DNA of 64,000 nt from Amoebophrya sp. A120 (Eukaryota > Protista > Dinoflagellata). Made by a program: the position numbers and the translations under genes. Positions within the stretch are counted from its first letter, which is position 1. Each line of letters starts with the position of its first letter. The stretch spans positions 7,222,743 through 7,286,742 of the forward strand of contig CAJINV010000002.1 of assembly GCA_905178155.1 (NCBI GenBank), given 5' to 3'. Below, piece by piece: positions 1 through 26,619 of the stretch. The notes under the pieces are model-generated. The model ran no database searches and was not told the DNA's origin. It saw only the letters and a list, made by a program, of their open reading frames with translations.

Positions 1-19
1 CCTCGCGTCGCCGGCGAAA

Positions 20-3000
20 TTGGAGAAGTACTTGACTGGTGGGTTGAAAAAGGGATCGCAGGTTTTGGTATGTAGAAAGAAAAAGCCGCCGAAGGTGGAG
101 GGCGGGAACTACCTTGGATTTTCGCCTCACTTGAAGAAGTATTTCGAAGCGAATGTGAAGAGACCCATTGGGTCCGAGCTGTGGGAAAAGTTCGCACTGG
201 AGTCCGGCGTCATTTCTGAAAGTCGTCCCGAAGGAGATGCAGCAGCATCGAGAGCAGTGGCCGCCAAAACAGATCTTCCGGAGAAGAAAAAAGAACCTAT
301 GGATGAAAGATCAATAAAAAAGGAGGAGGACACGCCGCCCAGAGCTTCTGCTGCGAAAAAAACTTCCGAGGACGCGAGTCAGAAGAAGCAAGACGGCGCT
401 GCTAGTACGACGGAAAATCAACAAGCCGCCACTTGTGCCGCAATAGTCACCGCGAGACGACAGGGTCGACAAACTGGCGTCGCTCTCAGCAAAACTCCGG
501 ACACGAGTGAGCAAGACCGCCACCTCTTTCTGCAACAGCAAATGGCGTTACGAAAGGCGGCGAAAGCCAAACGCTTATCCTCCCGTCTGATCGATTCGGA
601 ATCCGCGGAAGCTTTTGAGCGGAGGCGGAAGCGACAGCGGAGGTTGCAGCGGATGTTTTTGGAACAACACGAAGTTCAGAATAGCGAATCTCTCGGGACC
701 AAATTCCTCGCTGGGTTGAGTTCTCTCTTCGGAGTAGGAGAGACTGAGCACCAGCAACAGCCTACATTCAAGACATTAGAGCAAGCGAAGGCACTTGCCA
801 AATCCAAAGACAAAGCAGAACGGCACAAACACCACACCCATCTGCAGTTCGGGCAGAACCAAGAATCCAGGGACCCCCTGGTGTTGGACGACAAGGGCTT
901 CATCCTGGAACCTCCCGCCGGAAACCCGGAGCCGGTGCGCGTGTTGCCGCATTTGCTTTCCGAGGAGATGGCGTATTTGAAAATCGTGCTCGAGTGGATT
1001 GAATTGATCAAACAAACCACGATAAAACCCAGTAGCACTTTCAGCTTCAACGTCGGAGGATCTTCATCCGCGACGGCTTCATCCCTCAGCGACTACACGA
1101 TCCCAAGACCCACCGCAGCGACCATGCTGGCGAATTTTGGCAGCTCCCTTCTGAACACCATCACGGGGCGCGAGGATTTGTCGCAGCACGAGGGTGTCAG
1201 TGCGAAATTCCTCGAGTTGGAGAAGATGAGCGACGTCGCGCTTGAAAAAAGATTGCAGCGAAATGTGGAGGAGAATGCAGATTTGGTTGGGGACACAGGA
1301 AGAGGTCAAAATGCAGAAGATAATCGGTTCGATGGTGTCACAACTTCTTCATCCACGTTCTCCACAAACTTTGCACTTTTGCAGAAGAAGTTTTTCCCTG
1401 AGTACGTGGAGTACACTAAGCGCATCGCGATGCAGAAGTACTTGCGGCTGGCGAAGATCCGCACCCAGTATTTGTCCACCCTCTCCTACACCTGTCGCAA
1501 CACGATTTCCCACGAATTTGCGCTCGATGTTGAAGTTCATTTTCCGGAAACTGCGGAACTGGTGGAGATACAAACGCGGAAAAGGGTTTTGTCCGCATTG
1601 AAACTGATGGAAATCGAGTCCCACAACAGCCACTTGGCAACAGAATCTGCGCACCAGGCTGCAGTTGCACACGAAGAAGTTGCAGTCGACAATGAAGATG
1701 AAAATGGCGGAGAAGCAGGTGGAAAAGCCAAGCCCACCATCACGGCGTTTGCGATCGGCCTGCAATTGACCCGGATCAACGAAAAGGGAGAGCTAATCGA
1801 CCCGGTGCAGCGCCGGCGTAGATTCGTGAAGAAGCGGTGGAAGAAAGCGTTTAAGAAGGTGGTCCTTCTACTGAAAGTCACCACCCAGTTCCGTTCCCTG
1901 ATCCCAGTGTATGGTAAGCGCTCAACTGCTTTCCGGGTGAAGCAGCTGAGTCAGTTTCTGATGAAGAGCAGAGGTTTCATCGAGGATTTCTCCATGGGAG
2001 CAGGGACATCAACAACAATGCAGAACAACTATCAAAGGCATCAACTTCGCGACGAGCGGCAGATGGCGAAAGCGAGGCTGTTCGCCATTCGGGATTTTTT
2101 AGAACCATCCGTTGCCGTCGACGCGGAAAGACCACAAGAGGCAGCGCTGTTGTTTCCTGGCGACAGCAACAAACCGCAAACCGTCCGAGAAACAGCAGCA
2201 GAAACGAGGCGGAAAATCGCGTTTAAGCAGGGCCGGGGGCTGATTGAGCTGCGGCAGCTGGTACCACTGGTACCCTGGGACGATTCTATGGTCGCAGGGA
2301 AAACCAAACAAGAACCGAAGAAATTGTCCGGCCGACCGGTGAAGAAGCGAGATAGCAATGCTGCAAAGGAACAGCTTTCCGCTTTCACTTACGCGACTTT
2401 GTGGGAAGAAAGCACATCGGTAACTACAAGCGCAGGATCTACTTCTCGAGCTGGCGCGACGTCTCAGCAGCAGTTTAAAAACCACATAGCCTTGCTTCAA
2501 CCTGGGCAGTTAGCGTACAAAGAGTTGGCCTACATCTTGCACGACCCGAGTTTGAATTCCTTAATTCTCCCGGTGAAAGCGCAAGTTGCGAAAACGGAGC
2601 TGCAAACTGCTTTGTTGGGTCCTGCTGGTGCTGCTCAAAATGGAGAAGACAGTCCCGATCTTATCGACAATCTGTCAAATAACAACTACACCAATCACCC
2701 CTACCGGAGACGCTTTCAGCAGAACATGCAGAAAAACCAGAATTTGCAGGCCCTCCAGCAGGCGGCGAAGTATCCAAGAAAAAAACTGTGTAACTGTAAC
2801 TTCGCAGCAAGAACAGCATCACAAATTCGTTTTGCATTACAGGCAAAACCTGTCATGTGCAGCTAGTACATGGAAACACGTATGAAAGTTGCCTATCACG
2901 TACATCCAGCATAACAAGCGTATACGGTTTTGCATTTCCTGCATCACAGACTTACACTTACACAGTTTTTTTCTTGCATACGAAGCTGGAGGTTTTGAAT

Positions 3001-4024
3001 ATCAAGGAGGAGAACAAATTTCTAGAAAAGGTCCTCCACATATGGGAGTGTCAGGTTTGAAATCGACAAAGTTGAAATAATTTGTCATGCATAAAATGGA
3101 TGCCAGTTAGACCTGCAGTCTGTAGTCGGTGCATGACAAATTTTCCCGGTCCTGGAAGCCAGTCTGTCATGCGGTTTAGGGCAAAAGAGCTGCCTTCTGT
3201 CATGCTAGTCAGCAGCCCAACTTTTGACCCTTACCAGGACTATCATCTGCCTCCCTTGCGTCCTCTGCAATAGAGTCACTTTTTGTATCGCATTTTATGC
3301 ATTACAAGTTATTTCAACTTTGTCGATTTCAACTCTGACACATCCATACCACAGAGACCGAACGGAACTGCTGCTCGGCTGCACGAACGCGGATTTCGGC
3401 GGGGGAGCTGCATCCGGTTTGTCAGCACCTGTTCCGAGGATGATTTTACACGGAAATAATCCCAACAACGCGGAAATCTGGGGTAGCAACAACCCCTGGG
3501 TTTTGCAGCCGGTTTCCGCGGGAAGAAAGTTGTCTCGGTCGCCGAGCCCAATCGACTTTCAAACCCGGAACCGGCGCGGCAGCCGGAGTCCGTCGAACCA
3601 CTTCGGGAGCAGAAGTCGGAGTCCTCCCGGCTTGGTCAGGTCGCCCAGAATAAATCACGATCGGTTGATCGGTAGTCGGAGTCGGTCGCCGAATTTGATG
3701 CTGTCCTCTCGGCGTGGTCAAGTCCTGGAGCACGTCCCAGACGATGTGTTGATTCCGCAGTTGAGTCGCGGGAATTCGCCATCCCCAGTGATCGGGCGGA
3801 GCAGGAGCGTCAGTCGCGGCGGCAGAAGTGCGTCGGCAGGTAAGCGAGTTCGGTTTAACCCGAGTGACGCTGCAGTCGAGCCGGACAAACTGCGGATTAC
3901 GGTAAAGCAACCGACGGGGGAGAGATTCAACGAAAGAGCTTTTTTGAGGCACTTGCGGAAAAGCGCTCGAGGAGAAGCGGGGCCGGATGGAGAGGTTTTG
4001 TTTCACAATGTAAGAAGGATCTAG
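20..4024 (+). CDS. Large hypothetical protein, probably 5'-truncated by the window; exons ~20-2770, 2986-3040, 3354-4024
   Basis: The 948-aa ORF continues in frame once the elements at 2771 and 3041 (each plus one TSD) are removed: QAAK|LEVLNIKEENKFLEKVLH|RDRTELLLG. C-terminus is RS/SP-rich. No family recognised. Confidence 0.7.
2771..2980. mobile_element. TIR introner, family A (210 bp)
   Basis: TIRs tatccaagaaaaaaactgtgtaactgtaa / ttacacttacacagtttttttcttgcata; TSD cgaag at 2766-2770 and 2981-2985. Confidence 0.92.
3041..3348. mobile_element. TIR introner, family B (308 bp)
   Basis: Long TIR tatgggagtgtcaggtttgaaatcgacaaagttgaaataa / ttatttcaactttgtcgatttcaactctgacacatccata; TSD ccaca at 3036-3040 and 3349-3353. 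Confidence 0.95.
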
Positions 4025-5206
4025 GGAAGGAGGAGGGACGCGGATTTGAGGGACGCGGATTTTTTTTCAACATGGAAATCAGACTGAAAATCTATTCCAA
4101 GAAGAACTTTCATATTACTACTCAACAACAAGAAAGACGTTTCGAGTTTTTACGTTTCGTCCGGCTGACAAGTCACGTTTCGAATTATTTCCACTATTGT
4201 TGCAGATGCATATGCATTGAGCAAATGCAAGGTCAACAAGATGACACCAGATTCAATAGGTTTCTGTTGCAAGAACGCATGGCGAATCGTCCGCGGAGGT
4301 AAAAACAAACAAAAAAATGAATTACAGCCAGCCTACAACTTGAATTTGAATTTGTTGTCGGTTCCAACGAAGGAACCTGCACCCCCTGGCAGATTTTGAC
4401 CGTGCCTACTAGTGACTCACGACGGTCCAACATGTCCATTGCGAGCTGCTGGGCCCTGACATTCCTTGTCGTTCTCGGTTGGACGCATTACCAGAAATGT
4501 AATCGGTAGTTTGATAGACAACTTTTCGGCCACGGCGCAGGCCGCTCTGAGCACCGTCGTCCGCATCTCGATCAACAGCGAGAAATAACAAGTATTGTGC
4601 GCAGATTACTTGCTCGGTTCGTCAAGATTTACTGTTGTCGTTATTTTCGTTTACCATTTCGATTTCTCATATATCGGTCTTCTCGTCATCTATTCGGTTC
4701 ATTTGTCGTCAACTGCACAACTCAAAGTAGAATCGGTTTTTTGACTGAGAGGCGTTCCGCCTTCGGTAACCTCGTCATTTCAGCCCACTATGGCCAGCGA
4801 TTTTCGTCGTTGCTTTTAGTTGGTAGAAACACATCATACTTCGATAGCTTCCTCTACTCTCGTCCTTGCCACACCCATCTTCCAGGGATCTGTCGGCGAG
4901 AGAAGTTGTGGATTGTTGGGACCTAGGCCTCGCCAGTCTGCAGCGTCTTTCTCGCTTGAATCTGTTTCCTCCATCGACTGCTAATTTACTCCCCCTAATT
5001 TGAAGAATTTGAATTCGTTGCACATTTTACTCTTCCACTTTCAAAATGGCTCGACACCTTCTTGAACAATTGACCGTAAATGTACTACTTACGTGAGCTC
5101 TACCCCACCATTATTTACTTTCTTCCCTTTGTGTAGATCTACATTACATTTGCATTTCTGCTATTTTTTTACTTACATTGACGCGACACCCCTGGTTTTG
5201 CCCAAC

Positions 5207-7651
5207 ATGCCAGGCGGTTACGGCGAAAACTACATGGGTGATATCACGCGCAACAACACGGCCCCATCAACTCTGCCTTGCACTTATGCAGGAACATCAT
5301 TTTCACGCGCAGAGTCAAACTCAAAGTCAACAAACACAAACACAAAGACAAGCCGGAACTAGTTCCGCGGTCTCGCAGGGTCTAGGTCATGCTGGTGGAA
5401 TCCAGGAGTTCATCTTATTTGACTCATCATGCAACTGATTCCAGCACTACCATCAATATGACAAGCCTTTGCAAGAAATCAAAAAGGTAGTGTCGATAGT
5501 ACGGTGTCGTGTTTGCATGTGATATCGCGTTCTTTCGGTGGCGGGGAGTCTTCTTTTGAGGAGGAGACCCGAGGGCTGCAACACGACGAAGAACTGGCCG
5601 ACGAGGAGTTTTACGTTTCCAAGCCGAAATCCATGGTGCAGCACCCGCCGCAGCAGCAAACAAATTCCATGATGTACTCCGGAGAGGTATGGCATGAAGA
5701 ATGAAGAAAGGTGACTCGTCTCTTTACAACTGCATTTGCATGCTTGGAAGAAATGAATATGTCCGGGCTATTAAGTATGCTTTCGTATCCAGATTCACGA
5801 CTCCAAAGACTCCAGCTTGTAGTTAAGTCCATTAGTTGGTACCTCAACCCTGTGAACAAAAATAAGAGCACCTTTCTCGTCCCCTCGTTTCCATAGCCGA
5901 ACCCCCAGTACCCGAGCAGCTCCCCCAGTTCCGGGCCCGCCCTGCAGTACATTCCGCAGAGTGATTTTCTGTCTGACTTCGACAAGATCGACTTCATCCT
6001 GGACGCGAAGACCGGGTGCGCGGGCTACCGCTTCCAAATCCTGGGGAGACCGACGAAGACGCAGCGCGTGCACGTGATGACGATGACAATGAGCCGGAAC
6101 TGCTTCGACAACGGCGTGATGCGGCTGTACGAGGCGATGTACGACAAACCGCGAATTTCGCCCGGGAACTTTTCCGGTCTGCGCATGCGGTTCGGCGCCT
6201 ACGACGATTTGATCGAGAACCTGGATTACGGCGACCGCCCGCCGCTCGGCGAGTACGCGCTACCCTATCTCATGGCCGTCCCGCCGAAGACCTCCATCTA
6301 CACGGACTCCCGGGGCGTGTACCGGGAGGATGGAAATTGTTGTTGCGGGGCGTCGACCAACTGCAGCTGCTGCTACACGAACATCGACTACTCGGACAAG
6401 CAGAAGGACAGAATCCCGGCCGCGGCGTTGGAGCCCGTGCCCTGCTGCGAGGGCCCGGACTGCTCCGACCCGAAAAACAAAAATTGCTGCGCCTGTGGCT
6501 GCTTCGCGAAGAAGGACAAGCGCATTTGCTGCAACTACTGCGGCCCGAAGCCCGACGCGGTCGAGCTGTTTTCGCCGCAGGAGGAGCAGAGTGCGTGCAT
6601 GCTCAACTGTTGCGGCTGCAAGCTGAACGCCTGCTGCTGCCCCTACGAGGCCGGGTGCTGCTATGGATGTGTCAGAGTTGAAATCGACAGTGTTGAAATG
6701 ACTTGTAATGCATAAAATGCGATACAAAAAGTGACTCTATTGCAGAGGACGCAAGGGAGGCAGATTATAGTCCTGGTAAGGGTCAAGAGTTGGACTGCTG
6801 ACTAGCATGACAGAAGGCAGCTCTTTTGCCCTAAACCGCATGACAGACTCGCTTCCAGGACCGGGGAAATTTGTCATGCGCCGACTACAAACTGCAGGCC
6901 TAACTGGCATCCATTTTATGCATGACAAATTATTTCAACTTTGTCGATTTCAAACCTGACACTCCCATAGCTGCGCGCACGGCCCGGTGGAGCACGAACT
7001 GGTGTACTACGAGCGCGTGCTATGCAATGCAAAAGCATCGTACTAGTATAAATTGCATCACAAATTTTGGCAAGAAGAAAAGTGGAATTTGTAATGCTGT
7101 TTTACCTTAGAAAAGAGATTTGTCATGCATATTTGCAATTAGTACGACTACGATACTTTTGCACAGGATACGTGCCCAACCACGGCAATCTGGAGCAGCC
7201 CGGGCCCTTTCACCTCCAGGCCGTCAAGATCGGGAAATGCATCAACACCTCCTCCGCGGTGGAAAAGTGCTTCGGCCACTGCTGCAATTTCTTCTGCAAC
7301 CTGCCCCCGTGCTGCTGCTCGCAGACCGGCATGAGCGGCGAATACGAGTTGCGGGACATGAAGAACCGCCTGATTTTTACCATCGAGGCGGACGCCGGGC
7401 TCTGCCCGGGCAGCGACGCGGAGTTTCGCATCATGGAGCGGCGGGACGCCGGGAGGGCCCCCGTGCAGCGGGGGTCGATCAAGATGGAAATCCCGTTCTA
7501 CGCTTGTGGGTGCGGGGCGTGCGACTCCTGCTACGGGAAGATTCGTCTAGACTTCGGCACCATCGAGGACGTGTACCAGCGGTTCCACGTCTTGGGCTTC
7601 GCCATGCAGCTCTGCGAGAAGATGGTGGGCGCGCGACGCGGAGTGGCGTGA
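5207..7651 (+). CDS. Cys-rich phospholipid scramblase-like protein; exons ~5207-5241, 5530-5686, 5897-6661, 6975-7020, 7176-7651
   Basis: Exons join in frame (YSGE|PNPQYP, EAGCC|AHGPVEH, YERV|PNHGNL). The C-terminus FTIEAD...FRIM...GSIKME...RLDFGTIEDVYQRFHVLGFAMQL resembles the scramblase terminal strands and helix. First exon tentative. Confidence 0.6.
5242..5524. mobile_element. Degenerate TIR introner (283 bp), TSD not retained
   Basis: Left tatcacgcgcaacaacacg pairs imperfectly with right cgtgtttgcatgtgata. Flanks ggtga and tcgcg differ. Element+5 = 288 nt joins the flanking ORFs in frame. Confidence 0.55.
5687..5896 (+). other. GT-AG intron (210 nt) with decayed TAT...ATA inverted repeats
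   Basis: G|TATGG...CCATA|G; agaaaggtgactc near the 5' end pairs with gagcacctttct near the 3' end; in-frame exon join. Confidence 0.7.
6662..6969. mobile_element. TIR introner, family B (308 bp), inverted relative to 3041-3348
   Basis: Near-identical reverse complement of 3041-3348; TSD gctgc at 6657-6661 and 6970-6974. Confidence 0.95.
7021..7170. mobile_element. TIR introner, family D (150 bp)
   Basis: tatgcaatgcaaaagcatcgta / tacgatacttttgcacaggata; TSD cgtgc at 7016-7020 and 7171-7175. Confidence 0.9.
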
Positions 7652-9117
7652 AGGCGGCACGACCAGAAGCGGCAGAACTAAGTACAACATCTCTGCTGCC
7701 TTTATGGCTTTTTTTGTACGTTACGCATTTACAATTTTATCAGCATACATTTTGACATTTTTCGGGATTTTCATTCGTAAACTAGTTTAACATTTGCACA
7801 TCACATGTATTTAATAATCTTTATCATACGCATACGGACCTATTTCGTTTTTTTGTTTGGTTTAGCATAAATTCACGACTTGACGCTAACTCTAACGCAG
7901 AATTTCATCACAACTGACCCGCTAGGGCTAAAGATCATCGTTGAGTCGGTCGCACAAATATCGTTCGGTTGTTCTCTGAGGTAAGTTGAAGAGCAGTTAT
8001 TTTCCATGAGCAATAAAAATAAACATAGCGCATCCGTTCCACAGAGTAAAGTTTGAGTTCAATGGTATTCCTGTATTGTTTTTTGGCAGCCCGCGTCTTT
8101 CAGCCCAACACTAGGGTACTGCACCATACGTACGTACCTGGTCGTCACGAACTCTACAGGTTTTCTACGCTCCATGACTGGAACTATTTACAAAAACAGC
8201 ATCAAATTCAAAGTTGATGATTCGAAAAGTAATCTAGTGGAACTACAACTAAGCTTTATTGATTAAAATGCGCCAACAAGAACAGTATCGAATTTCAATT
8301 TGTTGGTATAGAAGAAGAATCTAGTAAGATAAATCCTCGCTTTACTTGTGTTGTAGCAAAACCATTTTCATGAAGATTTTATGGCGGCTTCTTTTAGTGT
8401 TCCGGAGCTCTGACTTCTACGCGAGCAGAAGCACTGTCGTGAAGACAACTTGACGGTGTAGCTCTCGCTCCGTTTCCAGCAGCGCAACGTCGGTGTAGTT
8501 TGATGTGGTCGCCTGTTTTATTCTGCCGTGGTTTTGCCCTGGGACGAGCAACCTCGTAGCCTGCTGGAAGAACCAGGTCGGTTGATTTTTGTCGTGTGTC
8601 CTTGTGTCATTGAGTTTCAAATAAATTTGTAATTGAGGAATTTGTTCCTGCTCGTTCGCGACCGATCCTATAGCAGCATTCTCCACTTCTAGCAGTTGCT
8701 CTTTGGTCATCAAATGAACAGTATCGGTAATTTGAATTCCTTTACCAAACGTTTCAGGAGAAACATCAGCACCCTCGCATGTATTAGCGTTCGACTTCCC
8801 ACACCCACAATATTTTTGTAGTTACTTGCTCAAAGTCTAAAGCTATTGGTGGTTTCTCTGACACGGTCCTTTTCACCCTCGCTCTTTTCTTTTCACCCTC
8901 GCGCGGCTTGACTAGTAAATCGAATTAAAGCAGCACCAAAATGAGATGAGTACGCATCTTTCGCAACCCCCAATTCTTGCGAGATTTTTGTGCAGGCACT
9001 TTTCGAAAGACGTTCGGGGAAGAAGTATAACGAGCACGCCCTCCTTTTTTGCGGTCGCAAGAGACCTTTCTCACAGCTGCAGCCTGCTACCACTCAACCC
9101 GCAACGAACAAGGACCA

Positions 9118-10829
9118 TGTCTACCGCAGCGACGTTTTCGAATTTTCCGACCGAGCATGAGCGTTTTCTCTTCGACCTGAATGGATACCTGGTCCTGCGC
9201 AATGTCTTCACCGAGGCAGAAATCGCGGGCATGAACGCTGAGGTCGATGGGTGGAAAAAAGAAAACAAAGTGGTATACCGGGAAAATATGAAACTAAAAA
9301 ACGCACCAACGACGACGTCGACGGAAACCCAGAAAAATGGCGATCAAACGGTCCCAAGTCCCATGAGTGGCTTGACCACGTCGGCCGAGCACTCCAGGGG
9401 CGATCTGGGGGGCATATTGTCCGCAAAAGCCTTTCGGAATGTGTTGACGCATCCAAAACTGGTCCCCTACTTCACGGCGTTGCTCGGGAGGGGCTACCGC
9501 ATGGACCACCAACCCTTTGTGATTCTGCAGAACAAGGACTCCGAGGGATTCTCACTACACGGCGGACCGGTCGGGGGGAAAGACCATCGGTATTTTGTGT
9601 ATCAATTGAAGGAAGTGAGGACTTTCACATATGATCTTCTGTTGCCTCGTTGAGTGTAGTCCTCACAACCACAAGAGTTCTTACGCTCTGTGTGTAACTA
9701 TCGTGAACGTGATGTACTACATGATGTGCTAACATTGGTTCCTGTAGATGATTTTTGTCCTGTAGATGATTCATTAAATCCTCTTCCTATCAAACTCACA
9801 GCCCCATCCCGGAGCTTCAATACCATTGCCAGAATGGTTGGATCACGCAATCCCTGCTCGCCTGTTCTGTAGCGCTGCACGACGCGCCCGCCGGCGCCGG
9901 CGGCTACGTCGTGGTCCCGGGGTCGCACAAGCTGAATTTCTCCATGCCGCACGGGTTCGACGACGCGACGACCCTACCCGGCAAGGCTTTTTTCGAAGAA
10001 CACGTGCAGCAGCCGGTGTTGAAGAAAGGGGACGTAGTATGCAAGAAAAAAACTGTGTAAGTGTAACTTTCTTTGAGAAACAACATTACAAATTTGCCCT
10101 ACATGACAGAGAAAACCTCTCATGCGTGGCATGTAAGGGAAACGGAAAACACACATGAAAAGAGGACTTCGTGGCTGTCTGGCATGACAGGTGTAACTCT
10201 GTTGCATGTTCTGCAACACAAAGTTACACTTACGCAGTTTTTTTCTTGGATACGTAGTTCTCTTCTCCGAGGCGACCATCCACGGTGCCGTCACCTGGAA
10301 GGCGGACTTCGAGCGACGAGTCGCATTGTACTATGGCGTAGTTCTCAACTGTTACATTCTCAAGTGTTACATGGATTTGTCATGCAAGAATGGGACAAGT
10401 GAAAGGGGGGAGGTTGCATCTGTAGCATTACAAATTCCGAACAGATTTGGGTTCTGTTTAGCCATTCGCAAATTTGTCATGCGAAGCAGCTTGATCGTGT
10501 GGATCTTGGTGATCATTTTGCATGACAAATCATGTAACAGTTGAGAGTGTAACGTTTGAGAACGCCATATGTACCGGTTTGCGCCGGCGAATGTCGCATA
10601 TGGAAGGATGTATCTCGGGGAGGAAACGAAAGGCCCATTTGGGCTGGATTTGAAAGAATTGACCGAAGAGGAAAAAGCGGTCTTGCTACCGCCGTATGCG
10701 GTGAGAACCGAAAGAATGTGTGTAGAAGTGGATAAGGAAGAAGGTGGCCGTGTGAAGGTAGGCTTTGACAAAAGGACCGCAGAGAAAAAAGAGCACGACT
10801 TTAAGGTGTTTGGGACGAAATGGTTTTAA
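9118..10829 (+). CDS. Phytanoyl-CoA dioxygenase (PhyH) family Fe(II)/2-oxoglutarate oxygenase; exons ~9118-9589, 9802-10037, 10258-10331, 10575-10829 (start may be 8946)
   Basis: FDLNGYLVLRNV, LHGG, GGYVVVPGSHK, and the motifs KGDVVLFSEATIHGA and RRVALYRF, which appear only after the two introners are removed. Confidence 0.88.
9590..9801 (+). other. GT-AG intron (212 nt) with a weak terminal inverted repeat
   Basis: cg|gtattt...cacag|c gives in-frame DHRPIPELQY; ttgaaggaagtgagga pairs with tcctcttcctatcaa. Confidence 0.7.
10038..10252. mobile_element. TIR introner, family A (215 bp)
   Basis: tatgcaagaaaaaaactgtgtaagtgtaacttt / aaagttacacttacgcagtttttttcttggata; TSD cgtag at 10033-10037 and 10253-10257. 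Confidence 0.95.
10332..10569. mobile_element. TIR introner (238 bp), singleton family
   Basis: tatggcgtagttctcaactgttaca / tgtaacgtttgagaacgccata; TSD tgtac at 10327-10331 and 10570-10574. Confidence 0.92.
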
Positions 10830-11854
10830 TATACTTCGAGCGGGATAAGATTCAACGGAAAGTTACGGCTAGATATCTGCCGAGTTTGCGAAGAGTTAGT
10901 CGACGAACTCAAATTTAATACATTTTTCCGCGCCAGAAGATCAAAAGAGTTGTGTTCAGTGCTAGTTCACTGTACTACAGCTGTCTAGGCCGTGGACATC
11001 GACCGACGAGAGGACAGAGAGATGCAAGCAGAATTAGTAGCCACAGCTGTCCCTTATCTATGTTTCGCCAGCAGGAGCAGGAGGTATTTTCTACAGCGAG
11101 AAGTGCTACGTATTGCTACTGTACTTGGGGGCAACAAAGAGGGATCACGATCTTTACTGAGCTGAGATGAGAAGAGCACGCACGTTGGAGAGGGTTGCTT
11201 CTTTTGTGAACTGCAAGATGTGGTTGTGCGGCCACTTTGCGTATATTATATTCGTATAAGAAGGTTTTTTCTTTTCGTGGTTGCCTGAGGCTGAGACCGA
11301 GCAAGAGTAGCATCAATGTGGTTTTGGGTCACATTCGGTAAAGAATACAGCAAAAGAAGCAAGTGCGGAGCAACAAAACAAAATAAGTGGCAAAAGAAGG
11401 GAAGGTACAATAAAACACTTCATTGTGCTGGCTCGTCGGTCCGAAAAATCGTCCCTCGTCTACTCAGAGAAGTAGAGACACAACAACATCATGTCGGCTG
11501 CTCCGCAGGTCTTATCCGACGCCACGCAGGAGGATCTGGCGATGGCCGTGGCGCACCTAAAGGAGAAAAATGACGAGGTGATTGCCGTGTGGCGTGTGAA
11601 CAAGGAGAACCACACCCTGTTCGACAAGCAGGTGCTCCCCTACCTCTGCATCCCGTGCTTGTGGCCCGCGGCCATCCTCGGTTCGCCGTGCTGGTGAACC
11701 GTCCGCCAGACCACGGTCAACATTCTGGCGGGTACGGTCTTCATCCTGGGGAAGAAAAACCTGTACCGTGTCATCGACGTGAAGACCGGAAGCTGCCAGT
11801 GCGCGCTCAAATGCGTCCCCAAGACCTGGTCGCAGGAGGGTGTTTGCGAGGACC

Positions 11855-12160
11855 TATGAGAATGCTGCACAAATGCTCCCCCTGCTTGCAGCTCTGATTT
11901 GCAGGACGTGCACCATCGGAATGAAATAAAATATTATAAAAGGCGAGCAGATAGTGGGTTGGGGTTCTCGTTCTGCATGACAAACCAACGTCGATGAGTT
12001 TTGTCGTTTGTTGGGCTTGTTCCAGATTTTGTCACGCAGGCGCTGGCAAAGGGAAACGAAAGGAAAGGGATTAGATGTCTAATATACTTGGTGATATGTT
12101 GATCTTGCGGGTCGTCACGCAGTCGAAGTCGTCGCGCGGGAGCAGTTGTGCACTCTCATA
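11855..12160. mobile_element. TIR introner (306 bp), singleton family
   Basis: tatgagaatgctgcacaaatgctccc / gggagcagttgtgcactctcata; TSD ggacc versus cgacc (4/5); removal gives EDLTKLDKVELIDKK. Confidence 0.82.
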
Positions 12161-12226
12161 CGACCTGACAAAACTGGACAAGGTGGAGTTGATCGACAAG
12201 AAACTGTTCTGTTTTCCGCTGCACCT

Positions 12227-12391
12227 TATCGCTCTGTGAAAAAGTTGCATCGTGTCGCTTTTCTTTGCAGCTCGTTTCGAACTTCCAATTTCCATAAAGC
12301 TTTCGAAACCTCCTGAAATTGTGTGAGTACTGCCAGCACATGCGGTGGTTGCTAGTTTGTGTTTACACAACGGGACTTTTTTTCTTGCATA
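12227..12391. mobile_element. Degenerate TIR introner (165 bp), family A-like right end
   Basis: Right end ttttttcttgcata; left end tatcgctctgtgaaaaagt is eroded; flanks cacct and catgt (3/5); removing element+5 links the ORFs in frame. Confidence 0.5.
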
Positions 12392-12877
12392 CATGTCGAG
12401 ATCAGCGCGCCGAGCCGTCTATGGAGCTTCTCGTCGCCCTTAATTGCGAAAGAGGAAGAGTGGGAAGGTGCGCGCTCAGAGCGAAGCTTCAGGCTTAATA
12501 CCATATTGACCTGTAAGCACCTGCACCGCTGCACCGCCGACGCGCCGCCCTACAGAGCGGTCAAATGAATTCCTGAAAGCATAGCTGCCCTTTCGCAATT
12601 TTTTTGCGAACGCCAGCCGCAGCCTGACGCAGCCGCTTGATGATTTTGTTGAATTTTGCGCCCTAGTAGCATAGACTTGTTGTACTTGGACTGGCAACGC
12701 CAATAGATACAGATAGTAAAGATGAAACTTTATTTTTATGATACTACAACTTGGTCATGAACGAAAACGAATGCCGACCCGCTGCCATGAATACGTCTTC
12801 CTGCAGAAAGTTCTCTACGAGTTGTTTTCCCTCGATATACCAAAGGTCTTGCCGAAGCTGAAGCGTTTGGCAAGGAA

Positions 12878-13663
12878 ATGGACGCGCAAACGTTTGAACG
12901 CCACACGCAGCAGTATGCAGTGCACAAGTATAATCGCACTAGCAGTACAACTAACTTCTTGTATGGCAACAAAATTTTTTGCCAAAATTGCGCAAATTAT
13001 GCAGCTCGTGCTTATTTCGCAACAAGAAAGAAAACGAAAAAATAAAAACGGGAATACATCATTCGTCGCTCGTAGTACCGGTGATAACAGTAACACAAGT
13101 ACGACTGCGATACTATTGCACGGGATACCTTCAAGGCAGACGCCAAAACGGCGATCCGCATTGGCATGCTGCGGAAAATGAAAAGGGTGAACTTTGGCCT
13201 TTTCGAAAACAACAATCAAGAATGGCAGGAACTGGAGGATATGCTGAAGAAAAAAATTGCGAACGAGATCAGCGAGGATGAGTTCTGGGAGCAGATGGAA
13301 AAGTTCAAGGAAAAGGACGACCAGCTGGCGGAGAAGGTCGCGGATTTGGAAAGGCAAATCGCGGAAAAGGATGAGAGACTCAACCTCGACAACACCTGTT
13401 GTTTGGTCTTGCTCGGCCCGCACATGAACTTCGAGGGTCTGACGGAGGGGAAAATGGGCCAGGGCGACTTCGACGCGGACCGCGAAAACTGGTGGGCCAC
13501 CACCGGCATGGCCTGCACACTGTGCCGCACACCCAACGGCTACTGGTGCCGCGAGGAAGCCGAGGCGCTCGACTTCGAGGCGCATGTGTACGAATACCAT
13601 CGCGACCAGTGCGATTCCTGGGCGACGGCCATAGAATGCGAAAAACATCACATGATCTCCTGA
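12878..13663 (+). CDS. Hypothetical coiled-coil protein with a CxxC-containing C-terminus
   Basis: MDAQTFERHTQQ is in the same frame as the 165-aa ORF 13166-13663, separated by the element at 12914. Start uncertain. Confidence 0.55.
12914..13127. mobile_element. TIR introner, family D (214 bp), TSD not retained
   Basis: tatgcagtgcacaagtat / gtacgactgcgatactattgcacgggata, matching the ends of 7021-7170; flanks agcag and ccttc differ; element+5 = 219 nt is frame-neutral. Confidence 0.7.
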
Positions 13664-15053
13664 ATTCTTGCGTGAGTACTGAGTAGCTCAAGTTTCGATT
13701 TTGAATAGCATTTCACCATGGTACGTAGTAGTAACTACTCTCCACAACTTCTTCCGGAGGCTCTGCTTAAGGACCTTTAACGTTTCGAATCGTTTATGAT
13801 TATGTTCGCTGGTCGACCAACACGTATCCCTTTTGCTTCCTTCATACGAGAGTGACCATTCTGATCATGTTTTTACTACAAGTGATGTGAACTATTCTTT
13901 TGGTTTCGCTACCCCTACCCTTCTTAATAATCATAAAAGCTATGCGAACGCGATCTGGTCCGTCGTGGACAAACGCGCAGGACTTTCTGACAAGGTGAAA
14001 GGCACCAGCCTCCACGAGGAAAGATGGGGCTGGAGCTTTTCGAATGTATCTTGTCTGTGTCTCTACTTTTTCGAATCCCGCGATTTACATTCTCCCTACC
14101 GTCGCCGCTTTAATACGTTTCCGCGACGTGCTATGCTTTTGCCTTGGACCATGTACTTAAACTAACACGAAGAAACTGACTTCTTATGAAAATTTTCCTC
14201 CAGGAGCCTGTGCCCGTTGAGAGCAGAACCTGGCTCCTCGGGCCGAGCATGAGAATCGGCCTCTGCCTTTCGTGCAAATTTCCTCGTCAATGTCCTCACA
14301 ACTTTATCGGTTATTTCCTTCTTCGGTCTCGTTCATGATGTCGGCGTCTTTTCACTGTCTCGGCTAGAAGTCAATTTCCTAGTCTGGCGGATGTTCTCAT
14401 GTGTGCCAACAGTTATTCGTTCAAAGGCGGCGCCAGTGGAGTTCCTTAGTTTCTTCGTGCGATGTTTCCGCTTCGTCCGCATCGTTAGCACTGCTATACT
14501 AGCGTTCTACGTCAATCGTTTGCTCCGCTTCGTCCCCGTTGAAAAAAATCTAGCGTTGTCTACTTGATGTGCTGGTAACACGACGTACTTGCGAACAATG
14601 CGTTCTTCCGTGTAGTGTTTGCGAAATCTAATCGTTTATGGCACACATCTTTTCTTCAACTGGCCGTGATCAAATCCAATTTCTCTCTCCAGTCCTTTTC
14701 TTTGTTGAAGTTGCAACTATAGAAGTAGTTCCCTCCCCCCTTTAACTCTTCTTCTATTTGCTTTTTCTACTACGAAAAGTACACAAGACCACAAATCAAC
14801 AAAAAAGTAACCCAAGGCCAGCACAAATATTGTATTCGTCAAGAGTTTTGTTTTTGAAGCCTAGAACCACGACCAGAATAAACGATCGACATAGAAGTGT
14901 AAAGGCGCGAAGGAGGCGACTCGCACGGCAAGAATCCATTCTTTGATACACAGGCAAACGACTCGACTGAATCGTTTGTGACCAGGACCTTGTGCTGGTG
15001 AAAAGTTGTAGTCCGGCGTTGCAACAAGGACACGCATAATTGTCAAACAAAAA

Positions 15054-16723
15054 ATGCATTTGAACACGGATTATTTCCTGCACGATCCGGTGCAGGAGCT
15101 GGAAAGCGCGGCGTCAAAGCCCAGCGAAATGAGAAAAACCACACCCGAGGGCTACATAGAAATCCTGCCCAATCGGCTGTACTGGACTGCGGTGAATTCC
15201 ACGCCGAGACCCACCTCCCAGTACCACTTTTTCTGCATCGACCAGGACTTGGTGTACGAGCCCTTCAACCAGGATTTTGGCCCGCTGAACCTCTCGTGCA
15301 CCTTCAAATTCGCCCGCTTGGTGAAGAAACTGCTGGACGACCCGAGTTTGTCGAAGAAGAAGCTCGTCCACTACTGCAGCCTCTCGGAGAAAAAGCGGCC
15401 TAACGCGGCGTACCTGATGTGTTGCTTCCAGGTGATGTACCTGAACAAGCCCGCGGAACTAGCCTACAGGCCGTTTGAGAACATCCGACCCCAGTTTCAG
15501 CCCTTCCGGGACGCGACGGCCGGCATGTGCACCTACGCGTGCACGGTGCTGGACTGCGTCAAGGGGTTGGAGTACGTATCCACAGTAATTTTCCTGTACA
15601 TGTACAAATGCGGTTTCTGCATGACAAAGCTTCCGTTTAATTCGATTCAGCATGAGAAGTGGCATGCTCCAAGTTGGTGAAATTTGTGATGCATTTTGTA
15701 CATGTACAGGAAATTTGTATTGCATAGTACGCCATGAAAATAAACTGGTTTAACCCGGAGACGTTCAACGTGCAGGCCTACGATTACTACGAAAAGGTCG
15801 ACAACGGCGACATCTCGTGGGTGATTCCGGAGAAATTTCTCGCGTTTTCCGGCCCCAGCGGGAACGGCATCGACACCTACGGCTACCCCGCCTTCACCCC
15901 CGAGGACTACGTGCCGATCTTCCGCAATGCGAACGTGTCCACCGTGGTGCGGCTGAACAAGGAACAGTACGATGCGGCGAGGTTCACGATGAACGGCATC
16001 AAGCACGTGGACATGTTTTTCCCGGACGGGAGCTGTCCCCCGAGAGACATTGTCAACCGATTTCTGCGCTTGGCGGAATCTGAACCTGCTGCGTTAGCGG
16101 TGCACTGCAAAGCGGGTCTGGGGCGGACGGGCACTTTGATCGGACTGTATGCGCAGAAGCACTACAAATTCCCGGGCCGGGCCTACATCGGGTGGAACCG
16201 GATCGCGCGACCGGGCGCGATCCTCGGACCACAGCAGCAGTATTTGTGCGATATGGAAAGGGAAATGATTGCTCTGGGCGAGCAGGAGCGCGCGACGAAG
16301 GGACTGAATGGTCGCAATTTGCCATCAGTGTCTGGTAGCGGAGCCTCAAACTCATTAAACGCAGGAGCAGCACTTCGCTCCCTCACCGCCGCTGAGAAGA
16401 AGGAAGACGTCGGCCAGGGCGAGCGTTTGGTCGCAGCTAAGGCGAAGCAAGGTGCAGGGGCTGGTGCTCTCACCGCGAAGTCCAGTATCAGTGCGAACCT
16501 GCAAGCGAAGTTGACTTCGAACGTCAGTGTGGGGGGAACAGGTTCGTACATCAACCGTTTAACCGGGAGCGAAATCTCCTTTTCGCGGTTCAGTCCGGGC
16601 CTCTCCTCGTCCAGTTCCCCGATGAAGCTCCTCGGACAGAAGCGCAGCGACAGTCGGCCAATCATGAAGGGAATGTTCGGGCCGCAGGGGCAACGCCCGG
16701 TGCGGTTGAGCTCGAATAACTGA
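15054..16723 (+). CDS. CDC14: CDC14 dual-specificity phosphatase, copy 1; exons 15054-15576, 15732-16723
   Basis: YEPFNQDFGPLNL, KRPNAAYL, PFRDA, FPDGSCPP, catalytic HCKAGLGRTG. Confidence 0.95.
15577..15726. mobile_element. TIR introner (150 bp), present only in CDC14 copy 1
   Basis: tatccacagtaattttcctgtacatgtacaaa / tttgtacatgtacaggaaatttgtattgcata; TSD gtacg; empty site gagtacgccatg in copy 2. Confidence 0.95.
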
Positions 16724-19072
16724 GGGGCTTCCGAGGAAAAGGAGACTGCACTGCCACGCTCATCGTTTTCGAGACGGTCGACACGGCAGCCGTCTTTACT
16801 GTTCCCGAGACATCAGAGACATACTCCCCTAAACCTTTTGCGAAGTAGAAACTTTTTCAGTGCCGCTGCTTAAGCGACACAAGCGACGAAATATGCTTCA
16901 ATTCAGGATTAATGGCTTCTGGCTTCATTATTTTTACACATTTTGCATTTTTCATTTTATTCCATTATCTTTTTTTTACTTCTTATTTCTTGCATATTTT
17001 TCTGTAGTTCAGTTTTTCACATTTTGCCACACCTTTTCATCGGCCTACTTCACATCGCATTCACAATCAAGTAAAAGCATCAGCACACTGTCGTCATCGT
17101 ACTAACAAGCGTCGCACATGCACAGTCACAGTACCCCTGTGCCGAACGTGCTCGCGTGACGTTCTCTTCGTTGTCCCCACGATTTCTGCGCTTTTTCGCA
17201 TGGCAAGGCTATTACCAATAGCACTGCGATGCAATCGATCTCACGGCAGTGCACGACCAGCCATCACTAGAATCAACCCAGCTGTAGTATTTCTAGTTAG
17301 TGTGTCCCGCGAAGAAAAGTGTGTCGTTTCCATTTTGTGCAGAAGTTGAGTTCAACTGAGATTTGGATTCGATTTCTTCTGAAGTACAAAGTAATAGGCC
17401 AGTAGTAGGTAGTCTTCCTGCCACTAGCATCTTCTGTTTGAGTTCTCCGCTGCTTTGTAGTACCCCTATTAATTTAGACAAGCGAACAGGACGGAGCACC
17501 CAAGCAGTTTTTAATTGAAATTTTTCAGATTAACCCAACCCCCCAAATTATTTCTGTACTACGGCGAGATCTGGCTCCCCTGATTTACCAAAGTGTCGTC
17601 TTCTTCCTCGATGCGATAAGTTACAAAAGTAACTGCGATCGCAAAAAGTAGCTTTGATAATTCAGGCTGCCACTCGTCTGAATATTGACCTGCGCAGCGC
17701 CTAAGGTTTTTTTCTGCTGTGGTAGCGCAAGACCGTGATTTTTTTGATCTTATTCATTCTGTAATGTCCTCGACCAACACGAAGACGAATCCCTTTTGCT
17801 TCCTTCATAGGAGAGTGACCATTCTGATCATGTTTTTACTACAAGTTAGTATGAGCTATTCTTTCAGTTTCGGTACCCGTACAGTTCTTGATAATCATAA
17901 AGGTCTGCGAACGCGATCTGATCGTAGACACGCGCGCGGGAATGTCTGATAAGTTGAAAGGCACCAGCCTCCATGAGGAAAGACGGGGCTGGAGCTTTTC
18001 GAATATATTATATCTGTGTCTCCTTTTCGTTTTCGAATCCCGCGATTCACATTTTCCCTACCCTCGCCGCTTTGATACGTTTCCGCGACGTGATATGCTT
18101 TTGCCCTGGACCAACATGTAAACACAAAGAAACTGACTTTTTATGAAAATTTTCTTCCAGGAGCCTGTCGTGCCCGTTGAGACCAGAACCTAGCTCCACC
18201 TCGGGCCGAGCATCAGAATCGCCCTCAGTTGTTCCTCTGCCTTTCGTGCAAACTTCGTCGTCAATGTCCTCACAACTTTATTGGTTAACTCCGTCTCCTC
18301 TCTCGTTCATGATTGCGGCGTCTCTTCACAGTCTCGGCTAGAAGTCAATTTCCAAGTCGGTCGGAATATCTCACGTGTGGGTGTGCCAACAGTCATTCGT
18401 TCTATCATCAAGAAAAGAAAGGTGGCGCCAGCGGAGTTCCTTAGTTTCTTCGTGCGATGTCTCTGCTTCGTCTTCATCGTTATCATTTTCATTGCTATAC
18501 TTGCGTTCTACGTCAATCGTTTGCTGCTTTTCGTCCTCGTTGGAAAAAATATGGCGTTGTCTACTTGATGTGCTGGCAACCCGTGCTTACGAATACCGAT
18601 GCGGTTTTTGTAGTGTTTGTGAAGGCTACTTCTTAGCGCAGACCTTTTCAGTAATTCGTCGTGATCATCAAATCCAATTACAATTTTTCTCGCCAGTCCT
18701 TTTCTTTGTTGAAGTTGCAAGTAGAAGTGCCCTCCCCCCTTTTCTTTAACTCTTCTATTTGACTTTTCTACTACGAAAAGTACACAAGCAACCACCACAA
18801 ATCAACAAAAAAAGTAACCCAAGGCCAGCACAATCACAAATATTGTACTCGTCGTTAAGAATTTTGAAGTCTAGAACCGCGACCAGAAGAAACGATCGAC
18901 GGACATAGAAGAAGTGTAAAGGCGCGAAGGAGGCGGCGCGCACGACACAAATCTATTCTCGATAAGAGGCAAACGATTCGACAATCGTTTGTGACCAGGA
19001 CCTTGTGCTGGTGATAAGTTGTAGTTCGGCGTTGCAAGAAGCACACGCAGAATTCGAATTGTCAAACAAAAA

Positions 19073-20854
19073 ATGCATTTGAACACGGACTATTTTCTGC
19101 ACGATCCGGTGCAGGAGCTGGAAAGCGCGGCGTCAAAGCCCAGCGAAATGAGAAAAACCACACCCGAGGGCTACATAGAAATCCTGCCCAATCGGCTGTA
19201 CTGGACCGCGGTGAATTCCACGCCGAGACCGACCTCGCAGTACCACTTTTTCTGCATCGACCAGGACTTGGTCTACGAGCCCTTCAACCAGGATTTTGGC
19301 CCGCTGAACCTCTCCTGCACCTATAAATTCGCCCGCTTGGTGAAAAAACTGCTGGACGACCCGAGTTTGTCGAAGAAGAAGCTCGTCCACTACTGCAGCC
19401 TCTCGGAAAAAAAGCGGCCGAACGCGGCGTACCTGATGTGCTGCTTTCAGGTGATGTACCTGAACAAACCCGCGGAACTAGCCTACAGGCCGTTTGAGAA
19501 CATCCGACCCCAGTTTCAGCCCTTCCGGGACGCGACGGCCGGCATGTGCAACTACGCGTGCACGGTGCTGGACTGCGTCAAGGGGTTGGAGTACGCCATG
19601 AAAATAAACTGGTTTAACCCGGAGACGTTCAACGTGCAGGCGTACGATTACTACGAAAAGGTGGACAACGGCGACATCTCCTGGGTTATGCATTGCAAAC
19701 ATGTCTGGGTCTGGAAGGTTGCAACTTGTAATGCTGTCTCTGCATTTTAGGAAAATCTGTATTGCATGATCAGCAAGAGGGGTCCAGTTTGTGCTTCATG
19801 GAGAGGGCATTTATCATGCGGAATATGCATTAGGAAGCCCTCCAAAAATCTGTGATGCTAGGTGATGCATTACAGGCATCGTGGGCCATGAAAAATCTGC
19901 ATGACAACTCTCGCAATCTTCCAGACCCAGACATTTTTGCATTTCACATGGGTGATCCCGGAGAAATTTCTCGCGTTTTCCGGGCCCAGCGGGAACGGTA
20001 TTGACACCTACGGCTACCCCGCCTTCACCCCCGAGGACTACGTGCCGATCTTCCGCAATGCGAACGTGTCCACCGTGGTGCGGCTGAACAAGGAGCAGTA
20101 CGATGCGGCGAGGTTCACGATGAACGGCATCAAGCACGTAGACATGTTTTTCCCGGACGGGAGCTGTCCGCCGAGGGACATTGTCAACCGGTTTCTGCGC
20201 TTGGCGGAATCCGAACCTGCTGCGTTAGCGGTGCACTGCAAAGCGGGTCTGGGGCGGACGGGCACTTTGATCGGGCTGTATGCGCAGAAGCACTACAAAT
20301 TTCCGGGCCGGGCCTACATCGGGTGGAACCGGATCGCGCGGCCGGGCGCGATCCTCGGACCACAGCAGCAGTATTTGTGCGATATGGAAAGGGAAATGAT
20401 TGCTCTGGGCGAGCAGGAGCGCGCGACGAAGGGACTGAATGGTCGCAATTTGCCATCAGTGTCTGGTAGCGGAGCCTCAAACTCATTAAACGCAGGAGCA
20501 GCACTTCGCTCCCTCACCGCCGCTGAGAAGAAGGAAGACGTCGGCCAGGGCGAGCGTTTGGTCGCAGCTAAGGCGAAGCAAGGTGCAGGGGCTGGTGCTC
20601 TCACCGCGAAGTCCAGTATCAGTGCGAACCTGCAAGCGAAGTTGACTTCGAACGTCAGTGTGGGGGGAACAGGTTCGTACATCAACCGTTTAACCGGGAG
20701 CGAAATCTCCTTTTCGCGGTTCAGTCCGGGCCTCTCCTCGTCCAGTTCCCCGATGAAGCTCCTCGGACAGAAGCGCAGCGACAGTCGGCCAATCATGAAG
20801 GGAATGTTCGGGCCGCAGGGGCAACGCCCAGTGCGGTTGAGCTCGAATAACTGA
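19073..20854 (+). CDS. CDC14: CDC14 phosphatase, copy 2; exons 19073-19686, 19954-20854
   Basis: Same motifs as copy 1; protein almost identical to copy 1. Confidence 0.95.
19687..19948. mobile_element. TIR introner, family C (262 bp), present only in CDC14 copy 2
   Basis: tgcaaacatgtctgggtctggaag / cttccagacccagacatttttgca; TSD tgggt at 19682-19686 and 19949-19953; right end reads ACA rather than ATA. Confidence 0.93.
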
Positions 20855-25045: not shown

Positions 25046-26619
25046 GGTGGTTGATGTAGGGACGTTTCGTAGTGATTGCGGCTCTAGTAACAAGAGCTGG
25101 ACCTCCTCCTAGCAGCCGACATATTTTTCATAAGCCAAAGTAGAACCCGTGCTGTTCGGACAGAACCGAAGTAGCTCCATTTCGCGACAGTAAATTCAAG
25201 AGTCTTGTTCATTAAACTGTTTTGCTCCTCACGATGTGTCATTTTTTACATAATTCTTTTGTATACGATTCATTTGCGATTACATTCAAAACATTCAGTA
25301 TTCACAGTTTAACTTTTCGTTTTATGACATTTTTCACATATTGCATCATTTCACATTAGAAATCCAAGAAGTGCAACTTGCGCTCGCTTTTAACGTATTT
25401 TCGATTTCGACATTTTACATTTTTTTCACACACAAAAATCTCTTGCTGAGTATCTACTACTCAACATCTCAAAAGCATTCTTGCATCGACAAGCCTGTGC
25501 AAGCAAAGTAGCCTGTTTTGAAATGCTGACCGACTACAGCGCTCGAGCTGGTACCCCCAGAGAGTGCTAGGCTCAGATTTTCTGTACCGTCTACGCATGG
25601 GATTTTCGTTGTGTTGGTCTGCTGTTGTACCCATTTTCCTTTCCAAAGTCTACTGTGAAAAATTCCAAAGGAACTTCATTCCACTCAAGAGGGTCGGACC
25701 CCGAAGCCGATTAGGTGATGTCGTCTGGCGGATATTTCTGCGGTAGTGCTGGTTTTTTTTTTCATTTTTTCAACATAAGTATGTTTTTTTACAACTCCAG
25801 CTCTCTTCTTCGGCTATCCCCAACTCAGGTGCGTTCCTTCGAGAACAACTTGGGTCACAATGCTAGCTTTCACAGTGGCACCCCCATGATCAGTTATGCT
25901 TACCTTTTATTTCGTGCTGCTCAATGGCAGCTGTTCTTGCTTTCTCCGCATAAGTCTTTCGTGGAGCAAGTAGTAATATCCTTTTTACTTCGAAGCACAG
26001 ACCTCCTTTATGTTGTCTACAGATCGTTGCATTGTGGTCCGATTTTTTTTTCGAAATAGTCTAGCGACTTCTTTTATGAAAATTTCGGAAACAATGCTGT
26101 GATCTGGCGATTAGACGGCGACCTCGAGTATTGAGACGAGCTGCACGCGTCCTAGTCGAAAAGGTGACGGAGCAAAAATATCTAAAACTCTACGTACAAC
26201 TACAATCCACGTAAAGTTTGCTATTGCAAACATGCGCGAGATGAACGATTCGGCAAAGAATGTGAGGACGAGAATTGTTGTAACGATAAGTAACGCAAAA
26301 CGCAATTTCCATACGCTTACGCGCTAGACCTAGAGCTGTAGTCAAGAGGGATTTGCAATGGCCCTCGCACGCGAGACGCCGAGAATAGAGTTAAGATATC
26401 GGGCGAAACATTTTATCACCGCACTTTCTCAGAATGTAGTCGTTCATTCAAAACAAAGCCTGCTTTCCCTCTCACTTGCTTCTTCGCGAGAGCGAAGGCC
26501 TTTTTGCTCTCGAAGGCATCAGTGTTCATCAGGTCGTCATCGCGATATTTCGACTTTGTCAGGGGTAGTCTGTCTTTGTTCGGCTTCGCTCGAGTTGGTG
26601 GCTGAATAGAAATGACGAT

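What the first reader, a model, noticed from the sequence alone, without database searches (positions are those of the whole stretch)
3041..6974. The same introner sits in opposite orientations in two + strand genes
3041-3348 and 6662-6969 are both 308 bp and are reverse complements with few substitutions and different TSDs (ccaca, gctgc). Both must be removed to restore the frame. Spliceosomal donor, branch and acceptor signals are strand-specific, so excision here appears orientation-independent. That implies recognition of the symmetric TIR stem (RNA structure), or removal at the DNA level, rather than U1/U2-type signals.
Basis: partly seen in the sequence, partly recalled or inferred. Interest (0 to 1): 0.85.

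Follow-up and report, generated by a model that had tools for sequence, protein, structure and literature searches.

The report
Two-way hairpin introns cut by ruler
In a parasitic marine microbe resembling Amoebophrya, one jumping-gene-derived intron is cleanly missing from transcript-like contigs whichever way round it is inserted, without the usual splice signals, and it is likely cut at fixed distances from a hairpin formed by its two ends.

Summary
Observation confirmed. 3041-3348 (A) and 6662-6969 (B) are 308-bp reverse complements (11 mismatches) with different 5-bp target-site duplications, in two + strand genes. Transcript-like contigs lack each element plus one duplication (313 nt): A in 2 of 4 runs, B in 4 of 4. 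A DNA-like run shows filled sites. Copies elsewhere sit both ways (5 vs 14; 5 unresolved). The elements match published Amoebophrya TAT-type introners.

The ends are near-identical either way (49/58 and 52/58 nt), and two-way spliceosomal introners are published.

A better argument turned up. All 10 non-GT-AG joints fit one register: the intron starts 1 nt before TAT and ends 4 nt after ATA. Two joints with decayed duplications allow only this register, and one of them was predicted beforehand. In it, AG ends 3 of 68 elements, +1 is any base, and no branch motif is shared.

Likely mechanism: RNA-level cutting at fixed spacers from the paired ends, like Euglena nonconventional introns. A relaxed spliceosome remains a real rival; DNA excision is unlikely. 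Efficiency and catalyst are untested.

The parts
3041..3348 (+). Introner copy A (TAT..ATA, 308 bp; TIRs 3041-3098 and 3291-3348). Inferred intron 3040-3352, ends AT..AC
   Evidence: joint 3035->3349, 313 nt, in X3 and X1; register
3036..3040 (.). Left TSD of A (ccaca); right copy at 3349-3353
6662..6969 (-). Introner copy B, reverse complement of A (TIRs 6662-6719 and 6912-6969). Inferred intron 6661-6973 on the + strand transcript, ends CT..TG
   Evidence: joint 6656->6970, 313 nt, in X1-X4
6657..6661 (.). Left TSD of B (gctgc); right copy at 6970-6974
2..4024 (+). Host gene 1 (5' end outside the window; 1164 aa after splicing; no Pfam match in the two exons tested)
5207..7651 (+). Host gene 2, Cys-rich 491-aa protein with four TAT..ATA introns; no Pfam match in the two exons tested
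5241..5528 (+). Old TAT..ATA intron with fully decayed TSD; junction unambiguous, 1 nt before TAT and 4 nt after ATA (AT..GC)
   Evidence: joint 5240->5529, both=0, in 4 of 4 runs
5687..5899 (+). Old TAT..ATA intron with decayed TSD and TIR; allows only registers 2+3 or 1+4
   Evidence: joint 5685->5899 in 3 of 4 runs
12913..13131 (+). Old TAT..ATA intron with decayed TSD; junction unambiguous, 1+4 (GT..TT); predicted before the reads were laid
   Evidence: joint 12912->13132, both=0, in X2 and X1; unspliced contig in X3; strand
11854..12164 (+). TAT..ATA intron with 4/5 TSD; compatible with 1+4, excludes 5+0
   Evidence: joint 11850->12162 in X3 and X2
2771..2980 (+). Other-family TAT..ATA introner in gene 1, spliced (215 nt)
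7021..7170 (+). Other-family TAT..ATA introner in gene 2, spliced (155 nt)
10038..10252 (+). Other-family TAT..ATA introner, spliced (220 nt)
10332..10569 (+). Other-family TAT..ATA introner, spliced (243 nt)
9590..9801 (+). Canonical GT..AG intron (donor GTATTT, no ATA at -7..-5) in a PhyH-like gene: both intron classes coexist
40803..41109 (+). Third family copy C (307 bp, TSD cattc), A-like orientation, in a UQ_con gene; not tested with reads

Best explanation
A and B are copies of one non-autonomous TIR transposon inserted in opposite orientations; each is absent, with one 5-bp duplication, from transcript-like contigs, and they are likely cut from the pre-mRNA by a machinery that finds the hairpin formed by the two ends and cuts 1 nt before its TAT and 4 nt after its ATA. 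Because 1+4 equals the 5-bp duplication, the original exon sequence is restored at any insertion site. Because the TIRs are symmetric, it works both ways round. Shown: precise removal in both orientations; one common register; no GT, AG or shared branch motif. Inferred: that removal is at RNA level, that pairing (not only the TAT and ATA letters) is what is read, and that the catalyst is not a normally guided spliceosome. I think a separate or heavily rewired machinery of the Euglena type is most likely.
For: Joints 3035->3349 and 6656->6970. All 10 of 10 non-GT-AG joints in 2000-14000 share only register 1+4; two allow nothing else and one excludes all but 2+3 and 1+4. In that register, over 68 oriented elements (52 of 61 in loci L001-L024 plus 16 in the window), +1 is G27/C24/A11/T6, AG ends 3 of 68 (background 7.3%, p=0.49), and 60 of 68 cannot be read GT/GC/GA..AG in any register. 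Branch-like YTRAY is below shuffled expectation outside this family (29 of 104 ends vs 38.7). The terminal stem is predicted in both orientations (duplex -75.5 and -65.2 kcal/mol; first pairs p>=0.9) and would bury donor and branch regions. TAT and ATA are intact in three old introns whose TSDs have decayed. All nine predominant A120 splice-site pairs in Table S4 of PMC7789003 have T at +2. Euglena has a tested code of the same layout, N3-CDG..CH'G-N5-6 (PMC12501133).
Against: Three of the 10 spliced elements (5688, 7021, 12914) have weak predicted pairing of the terminal pairs (first three pairs p 0.07-0.26), yet are removed; two of them help fix the register. TIR pair 4 is mismatched in 22 of 77 elements. 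TAT at +2..+4 is in the register of a GT-A donor, and the one read-supported canonical intron starts GTAT. G at +1 is mildly enriched (27 of 68, p=0.044; composition p=0.01, one of five positions tested). Only two joints are fully unambiguous. The runs are contigs of 2 samples, 1 study, labelled RNA by guess; they show neither strand nor efficiency.
Confidence: 0.55

Rival explanations
1. A relaxed U2-type spliceosome removes them by reading sequence carried in the TIRs: N-TAT as a degenerate donor, and a 3' site counted 4 nt from ATA (possibly using one of its As as branch). Orientation does not matter because both ends carry the same letters.
For: Ends near-identical in both orientations. 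T at +2 and A at +3 as in GT-A donors. Weak-stem elements still splice. Nearly all spliceosomal proteins plus U2, U4 and U6 are present in A25 and A120 (PMC7789003 section 10). The U2 spliceosome is reported necessary for TIR-derived non-canonical introns in Fritillaria (10.1101/2025.08.15.670264, passages). CTGAC lies near the 3' end of both A and B.
Against: +1 is C or T in 30 of 68 elements and both last bases are free. That spliceosomes need matched first and last intron bases is recalled knowledge. No shared branch motif across families. A 58-bp duplex covers the signals. U1 snRNA was not detected in A25 or A120.
Confidence: 0.37
2. The elements are excised from DNA (transposase or programmed elimination) in the transcribed stage, so transcripts come from empty sites.
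For: TIR plus 5-bp TSD anatomy; filled and empty paralogous sites show DNA insertion. Life stage of the runs is unknown, and contigs drop rare forms.
Against: DNA-like run X5 (depth about 42-50 outside repeats) has contigs running through element borders (3322-6688, 6942-7046, 7143-10062) and 0 support for the seven transcript joints displayed, including B's. A's joint row was among 46 rows not shown. A symmetric DNA cut would give both 1+4 and 4+1 products at decayed TSDs; only 1+4 appears. A GT..AG intron is removed in the same contigs.
Confidence: 0.05
3. Only one orientation is really spliced, or the other uses cryptic sites.
For: A's joint rests on two low-depth contigs (7.7 and 4.2) plus a 10-letter loose end in X2. 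Orientation counts lean to B-like (14 vs 5, p=0.064).
Against: The A joint is exact (313 nt) in both samples. No other joint is listed inside A or B. Five A-like copies elsewhere restore stop-free frames.
Confidence: 0.03

Closest known systems
Amoebophrya introner elements, A120 type (PMC7789003)
   Same: TIR starting TAT with an A-run after about seven bases, 5-bp direct repeat, hairpin, non-canonical ends, co-oriented gene blocks; nearest named CDC14 relatives are Amoebophrya proteins.
   Different: The paper calls splice sites variable relative to the hairpin and the border unknown (Fig. 3 legend). Its four main-text and three supplement hits for 'orientation' that I saw concern gene orientation. 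Here one register (1+4) and two-way removal are shown. TIRs here reach 58 nt versus 8-20 nt reported.
Euglena nonconventional introns (PMC12501133; review PMC11282704)
   Same: Paired triplets near the ends, fixed spacers with the 3' spacer longer, free terminal bases, direct repeats, proposed MITE origin, coexistence with GT-AG introns.
   Different: Motif CAG/CTG with spacers 3 and 5-6, versus TAT/ATA with 1 and 4. Unrelated lineage. Circular excised RNA is reported there and untested here.
Polarella and Aureococcus introners (10.1101/2020.10.14.339549)
   Same: TIR/TSD DNA transposons creating introns in either orientation.
   Different: They carry or co-opt GT/GC/GA and AG; here 60 of 68 elements have no such reading in any register.
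Fritillaria borealis non-canonical introns (via 10.1101/2025.08.15.670264 and PMC11282704)
   Same: TIR-transposon origin, non-GT-AG ends.
   Different: Dominant AG-AC/AG-AT ends and a reported need for the U2 spliceosome; here no dominant end pair and the machinery is unknown.

Membership tests
Amoebophrya introner (A120 type) | Inverted repeat at both intron ends starting TAT, with an A-run further in | tested here: met
   TIR pairs 10-14 complementary in 70-75 of 77 elements (elements were picked partly on pairing)
Amoebophrya introner (A120 type) | 3-5 nt direct repeat at the borders | tested here: met
   5-bp TSDs; 54 of 61 locus elements have 5/5 (picked partly on TSD); empty paralog sites
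Amoebophrya introner (A120 type) | Repeated across the genome | tested here: met
   3 copies in the window; 24 full copies in 22 of 24 loci of one other or related assembly
Amoebophrya introner (A120 type) | Removed from transcripts at non-canonical sites | tested here: met
   runs are labelled RNA by guess, supported by gene-wise depth and loss of a GT..AG intron
Amoebophrya introner (A120 type) | Host is Amoebophrya | tested here: inconclusive
   Best named hits of the CDC14 exon are Amoebophrya proteins at 80% and 76%; genus likely, strain left open
U2-type spliceosomal intron | GT/GC/GA donor and AG acceptor | tested here: not met
   none in any register for A or B; 8 of 68 elements overall
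U2-type spliceosomal intron | Shared branch-point motif near the 3' end | tested here: inconclusive
   CTGAC in both ends of this family (50 of 50 ends, partly by how the family was defined), not enriched in other families
U2-type spliceosomal intron | Lariat intermediate, snRNP dependence | not testable with these tools
   only contigs available
U12-type intron | RTATCCTT donor (consensus recalled) | tested here: not met
   A reads AT..AC but ATATGGGA; +5 is G40/C25, +6 mostly G, +7 mostly A; U11/U12 reported absent in A25 and A120
Euglena-type nonconventional intron | N3-CDG..CH'G-N5-6 signature | tested here: not met
   motif and spacers are N1-TAT..ATA-N4: works alike, not a member
Euglena-type nonconventional intron | Excised as full-length circle, no lariat | not testable with these tools
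   needs raw or RNase R-treated RNA

The most novel reading that the evidence does not exclude
Amoebophrya has a second, spliceosome-independent nuclear pre-mRNA splicing system, convergent with that of Euglena. It recognises a UAU/AUA-closed hairpin and cuts 1 nt before and 4 nt after it. The offset is matched to the 5-bp target duplication, so these transposons become seamless introns at any site and in either orientation.
Probability: 0.35. Interest if true: 0.9.

Novelty: new member of a known kind. Interest (0 to 1): 0.62.

Why it matters
How Amoebophrya removes its more than 60% non-canonical introns was left open in 2021, with borders called variable or unknown. A fixed N|TAT..ATA-NNNN| rule gives exact borders. 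That makes circle, lariat and end-chemistry assays and minigene designs directly possible, and would fix gene annotation. It also explains why these transposons can spread freely: spacers of 1+4 equal the 5-bp duplication, and symmetric ends remove any orientation cost. A and B are a natural matched pair (96% identical, opposite strands) for testing that the interior is irrelevant. The element class and two-way introners as such are already published.

Tried and rejected
No whole genome is held, so no genome-wide count was possible. The run search listed no holder on record as RNA. Huff 2016 (PMC5684705) is not held; its two-way result is taken second-hand from the Roy preprint. Earlier-findings look-ups returned nothing. 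Pfam found nothing in the tested exons of host genes 1 and 2. A homolog search for gene 2 was not completed (wrong frame).

Rejected: canonical sites hidden by the TSD slide; U12-type introns; host genes on the - strand (the gene at 11.5 kb stayed unresolved by codon score); assembly artefact (different TSDs, 11 substitutions, X5 contig 3322-6688 joining A to B). Orientation bias (5 vs 14 in loci, p=0.064; 7 vs 15 with the window copies, p=0.13) is not significant. Dropped before that count: 5 copies with unclear gene strand, loci L013 and L018 (truncated or partial), and one L006 copy missed by the filter. Summed contig depth over the elements was not used as a copy number.
Full report
Observation. 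A (3041-3348) and B (6662-6969) are 308 bp each; A and the reverse complement of B differ at 11 positions without gaps. TSDs are ccaca and gctgc; TIRs are 58 nt. A third copy C (40803-41109, 73%) has A's orientation. Both host genes are + strand by frame length and by a codon model trained outside 1-14000. Retention truncates them at aa 948 and 336. The unit removed is 313 nt, element plus one TSD.

Is it spliced both ways? Contigs of four runs guessed as RNA (2 samples, 1 study) give 11 joints in 2000-14000, with none hidden. 3035->3349 appears in X3 and X1, and 6656->6970 in all four; no other joint lies inside A or B. The runs behave like RNA: depth differs by gene, falls to about zero between genes, and a GT..AG intron is removed. 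The DNA-like run X5 has even depth, contigs through the element borders, and no support for the seven transcript joints displayed (46 rows were not shown, including A's). Raw RNA run X8 gave no reads. Contigs drop rare forms, so efficiency is unknown. Retention is seen at 12913-13131 in X3 and partly at the 11855 element in X4.

More copies. A TIR pattern scan gave 24 loci from one assembly whose relation to the window is unknown. Of 24 full copies in 22 loci, 5 lie A-like and 14 B-like relative to the predicted host strand, and 5 are unresolved; the skew is not significant. CDC14-like paralogs at 15-25 kb show filled versus empty sites with 5-bp duplication, and removal restores two 504-aa frames.

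As transcribed, A and B share 49/58 nt at the 5' end, 52/58 at the 3' end, and a CTGAC at the same position; only the middle differs (53/192). Sequence signals and the stem are therefore both orientation-proof, and orientation cannot tell them apart. Two-way introners with ordinary splice sites are described for Polarella and Aureococcus (10.1101/2020.10.14.339549).

What does discriminate. Perfect TSDs blur a junction, decayed ones do not. Joints 5240->5529 and 12912->13132 are unambiguous, and both start 1 nt before TAT and end 4 nt after ATA. The second was predicted. Joint 5685->5899 allows 2+3 or 1+4. The only register shared by all 10 non-GT-AG joints is 1+4. In it A is AT..AC and B is CT..TG. 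Over 68 oriented elements, +1 is G27/C24/A11/T6, the last four positions do not differ from coding background, AG ends 3, GT..AG occurs once, and 8 can be read canonically in some register. TAT and ATA were selection criteria for that set, but not for the 10 joints. No branch motif is shared across families. The asymmetry 1+4 follows the transcribed strand; a symmetric DNA cut would be expected (inference) to leave both 1+4 and 4+1 products. All informative genes are on +, so this polarity test is limited.

Mechanism. Most likely the paired ends are recognised on the pre-mRNA and cut at fixed spacers whose sum equals the TSD (0.55). The stem is predicted in both orientations. Against this, three spliced elements have weak predicted terminal pairing and pair 4 is often mismatched; TAT sits in the register of a GT-A donor; and G or C is mildly favoured at +1. 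A relaxed spliceosome reading N-TAT and counting from ATA is thus a serious rival (0.37). DNA excision is unlikely (0.05).

Comparison with what is known. The anatomy matches Amoebophrya A120-type introners (PMC7789003), and the best named CDC14 hits are Amoebophrya. The strain is left open, so these may belong to the published set. That paper notes hairpins and missing U1 and expects a distinct mechanism, but calls the borders variable or unknown. Its Table S4 lists nine A120 end pairs, all with T at +2, as the 1+4 rule predicts. Euglena's tested code has the same layout with other letters and spacers.

Literature seen. PMC7789003: abstract, passages, sections 10, 11, 12, 16, supplement part 2 and Table S4 rows; figures (Fig. 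3 logos, S19-S25) could not be seen and may show the offset. PMC12501133: abstract, passages, section 7. Passages only: 10.1101/2020.10.14.339549, 10.1101/2025.08.15.670264, PMC11282704, PMC9860276, PMC12130899, PMC12787238, PMC11453091; their supplements were not read, and those of the preprints are closed. Huff 2016 and Henriet 2019 were not read. Eight searches and these readings showed no statement of a fixed 1+4 register or of two-way splicing in Amoebophrya; subscription papers are not covered.

Verdict. The feature is real and spliced both ways. It is a member of a published introner class, with a splice-site rule not found in the papers searched that makes the open mechanism testable. 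Interest 0.62.

Noticed in passing
window 11491-12240: Small Cys-rich + strand gene with an in-frame TGA (GSPCW*TVRQ) that is also present in the X3 contig; pseudogene, readthrough or selenocysteine.
   Followed up: no
window 15054-25046: Three tandem CDC14-like phosphatase genes (two about 97% identical), each with different introner insertions, giving filled and empty site pairs.
   Followed up: partly
window 19687-19948: Introner whose right end reads ACA instead of ATA; removal restores a 504-aa frame, but splicing was not tested.
   Followed up: partly
window 12913-13131: Weak-stem old intron spliced in X1 and X2 but retained in the X3 contig.
   Followed up: partly
window about 41276-41480: Likely canonical GT..AG intron (donor GTACTA) in the ubiquitin-conjugating gene that also hosts copy C; read from sequence only.
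   Followed up: no
window 9590-9801: The canonical GT..AG intron shows partial end-to-end complementarity and starts GTAT; possibly a decayed introner that became canonical.
   Followed up: no
68 oriented elements (window and L001-L024): The fifth TSD base (intron +1, and first base of the next exon) is G or C in 51 of 68, while the first TSD base shows no mirror bias; may reflect RNA-level selection or codon phase.
   Followed up: partly
L006, L016: Two or three copies of the same family within about 1 kb; several families share internal CATGACAAA-like words, suggesting local hopping and a shared transposase site.
   Followed up: no
window 1-64000: Nearly all long ORFs are on the + strand, a co-oriented gene block.
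   Followed up: no
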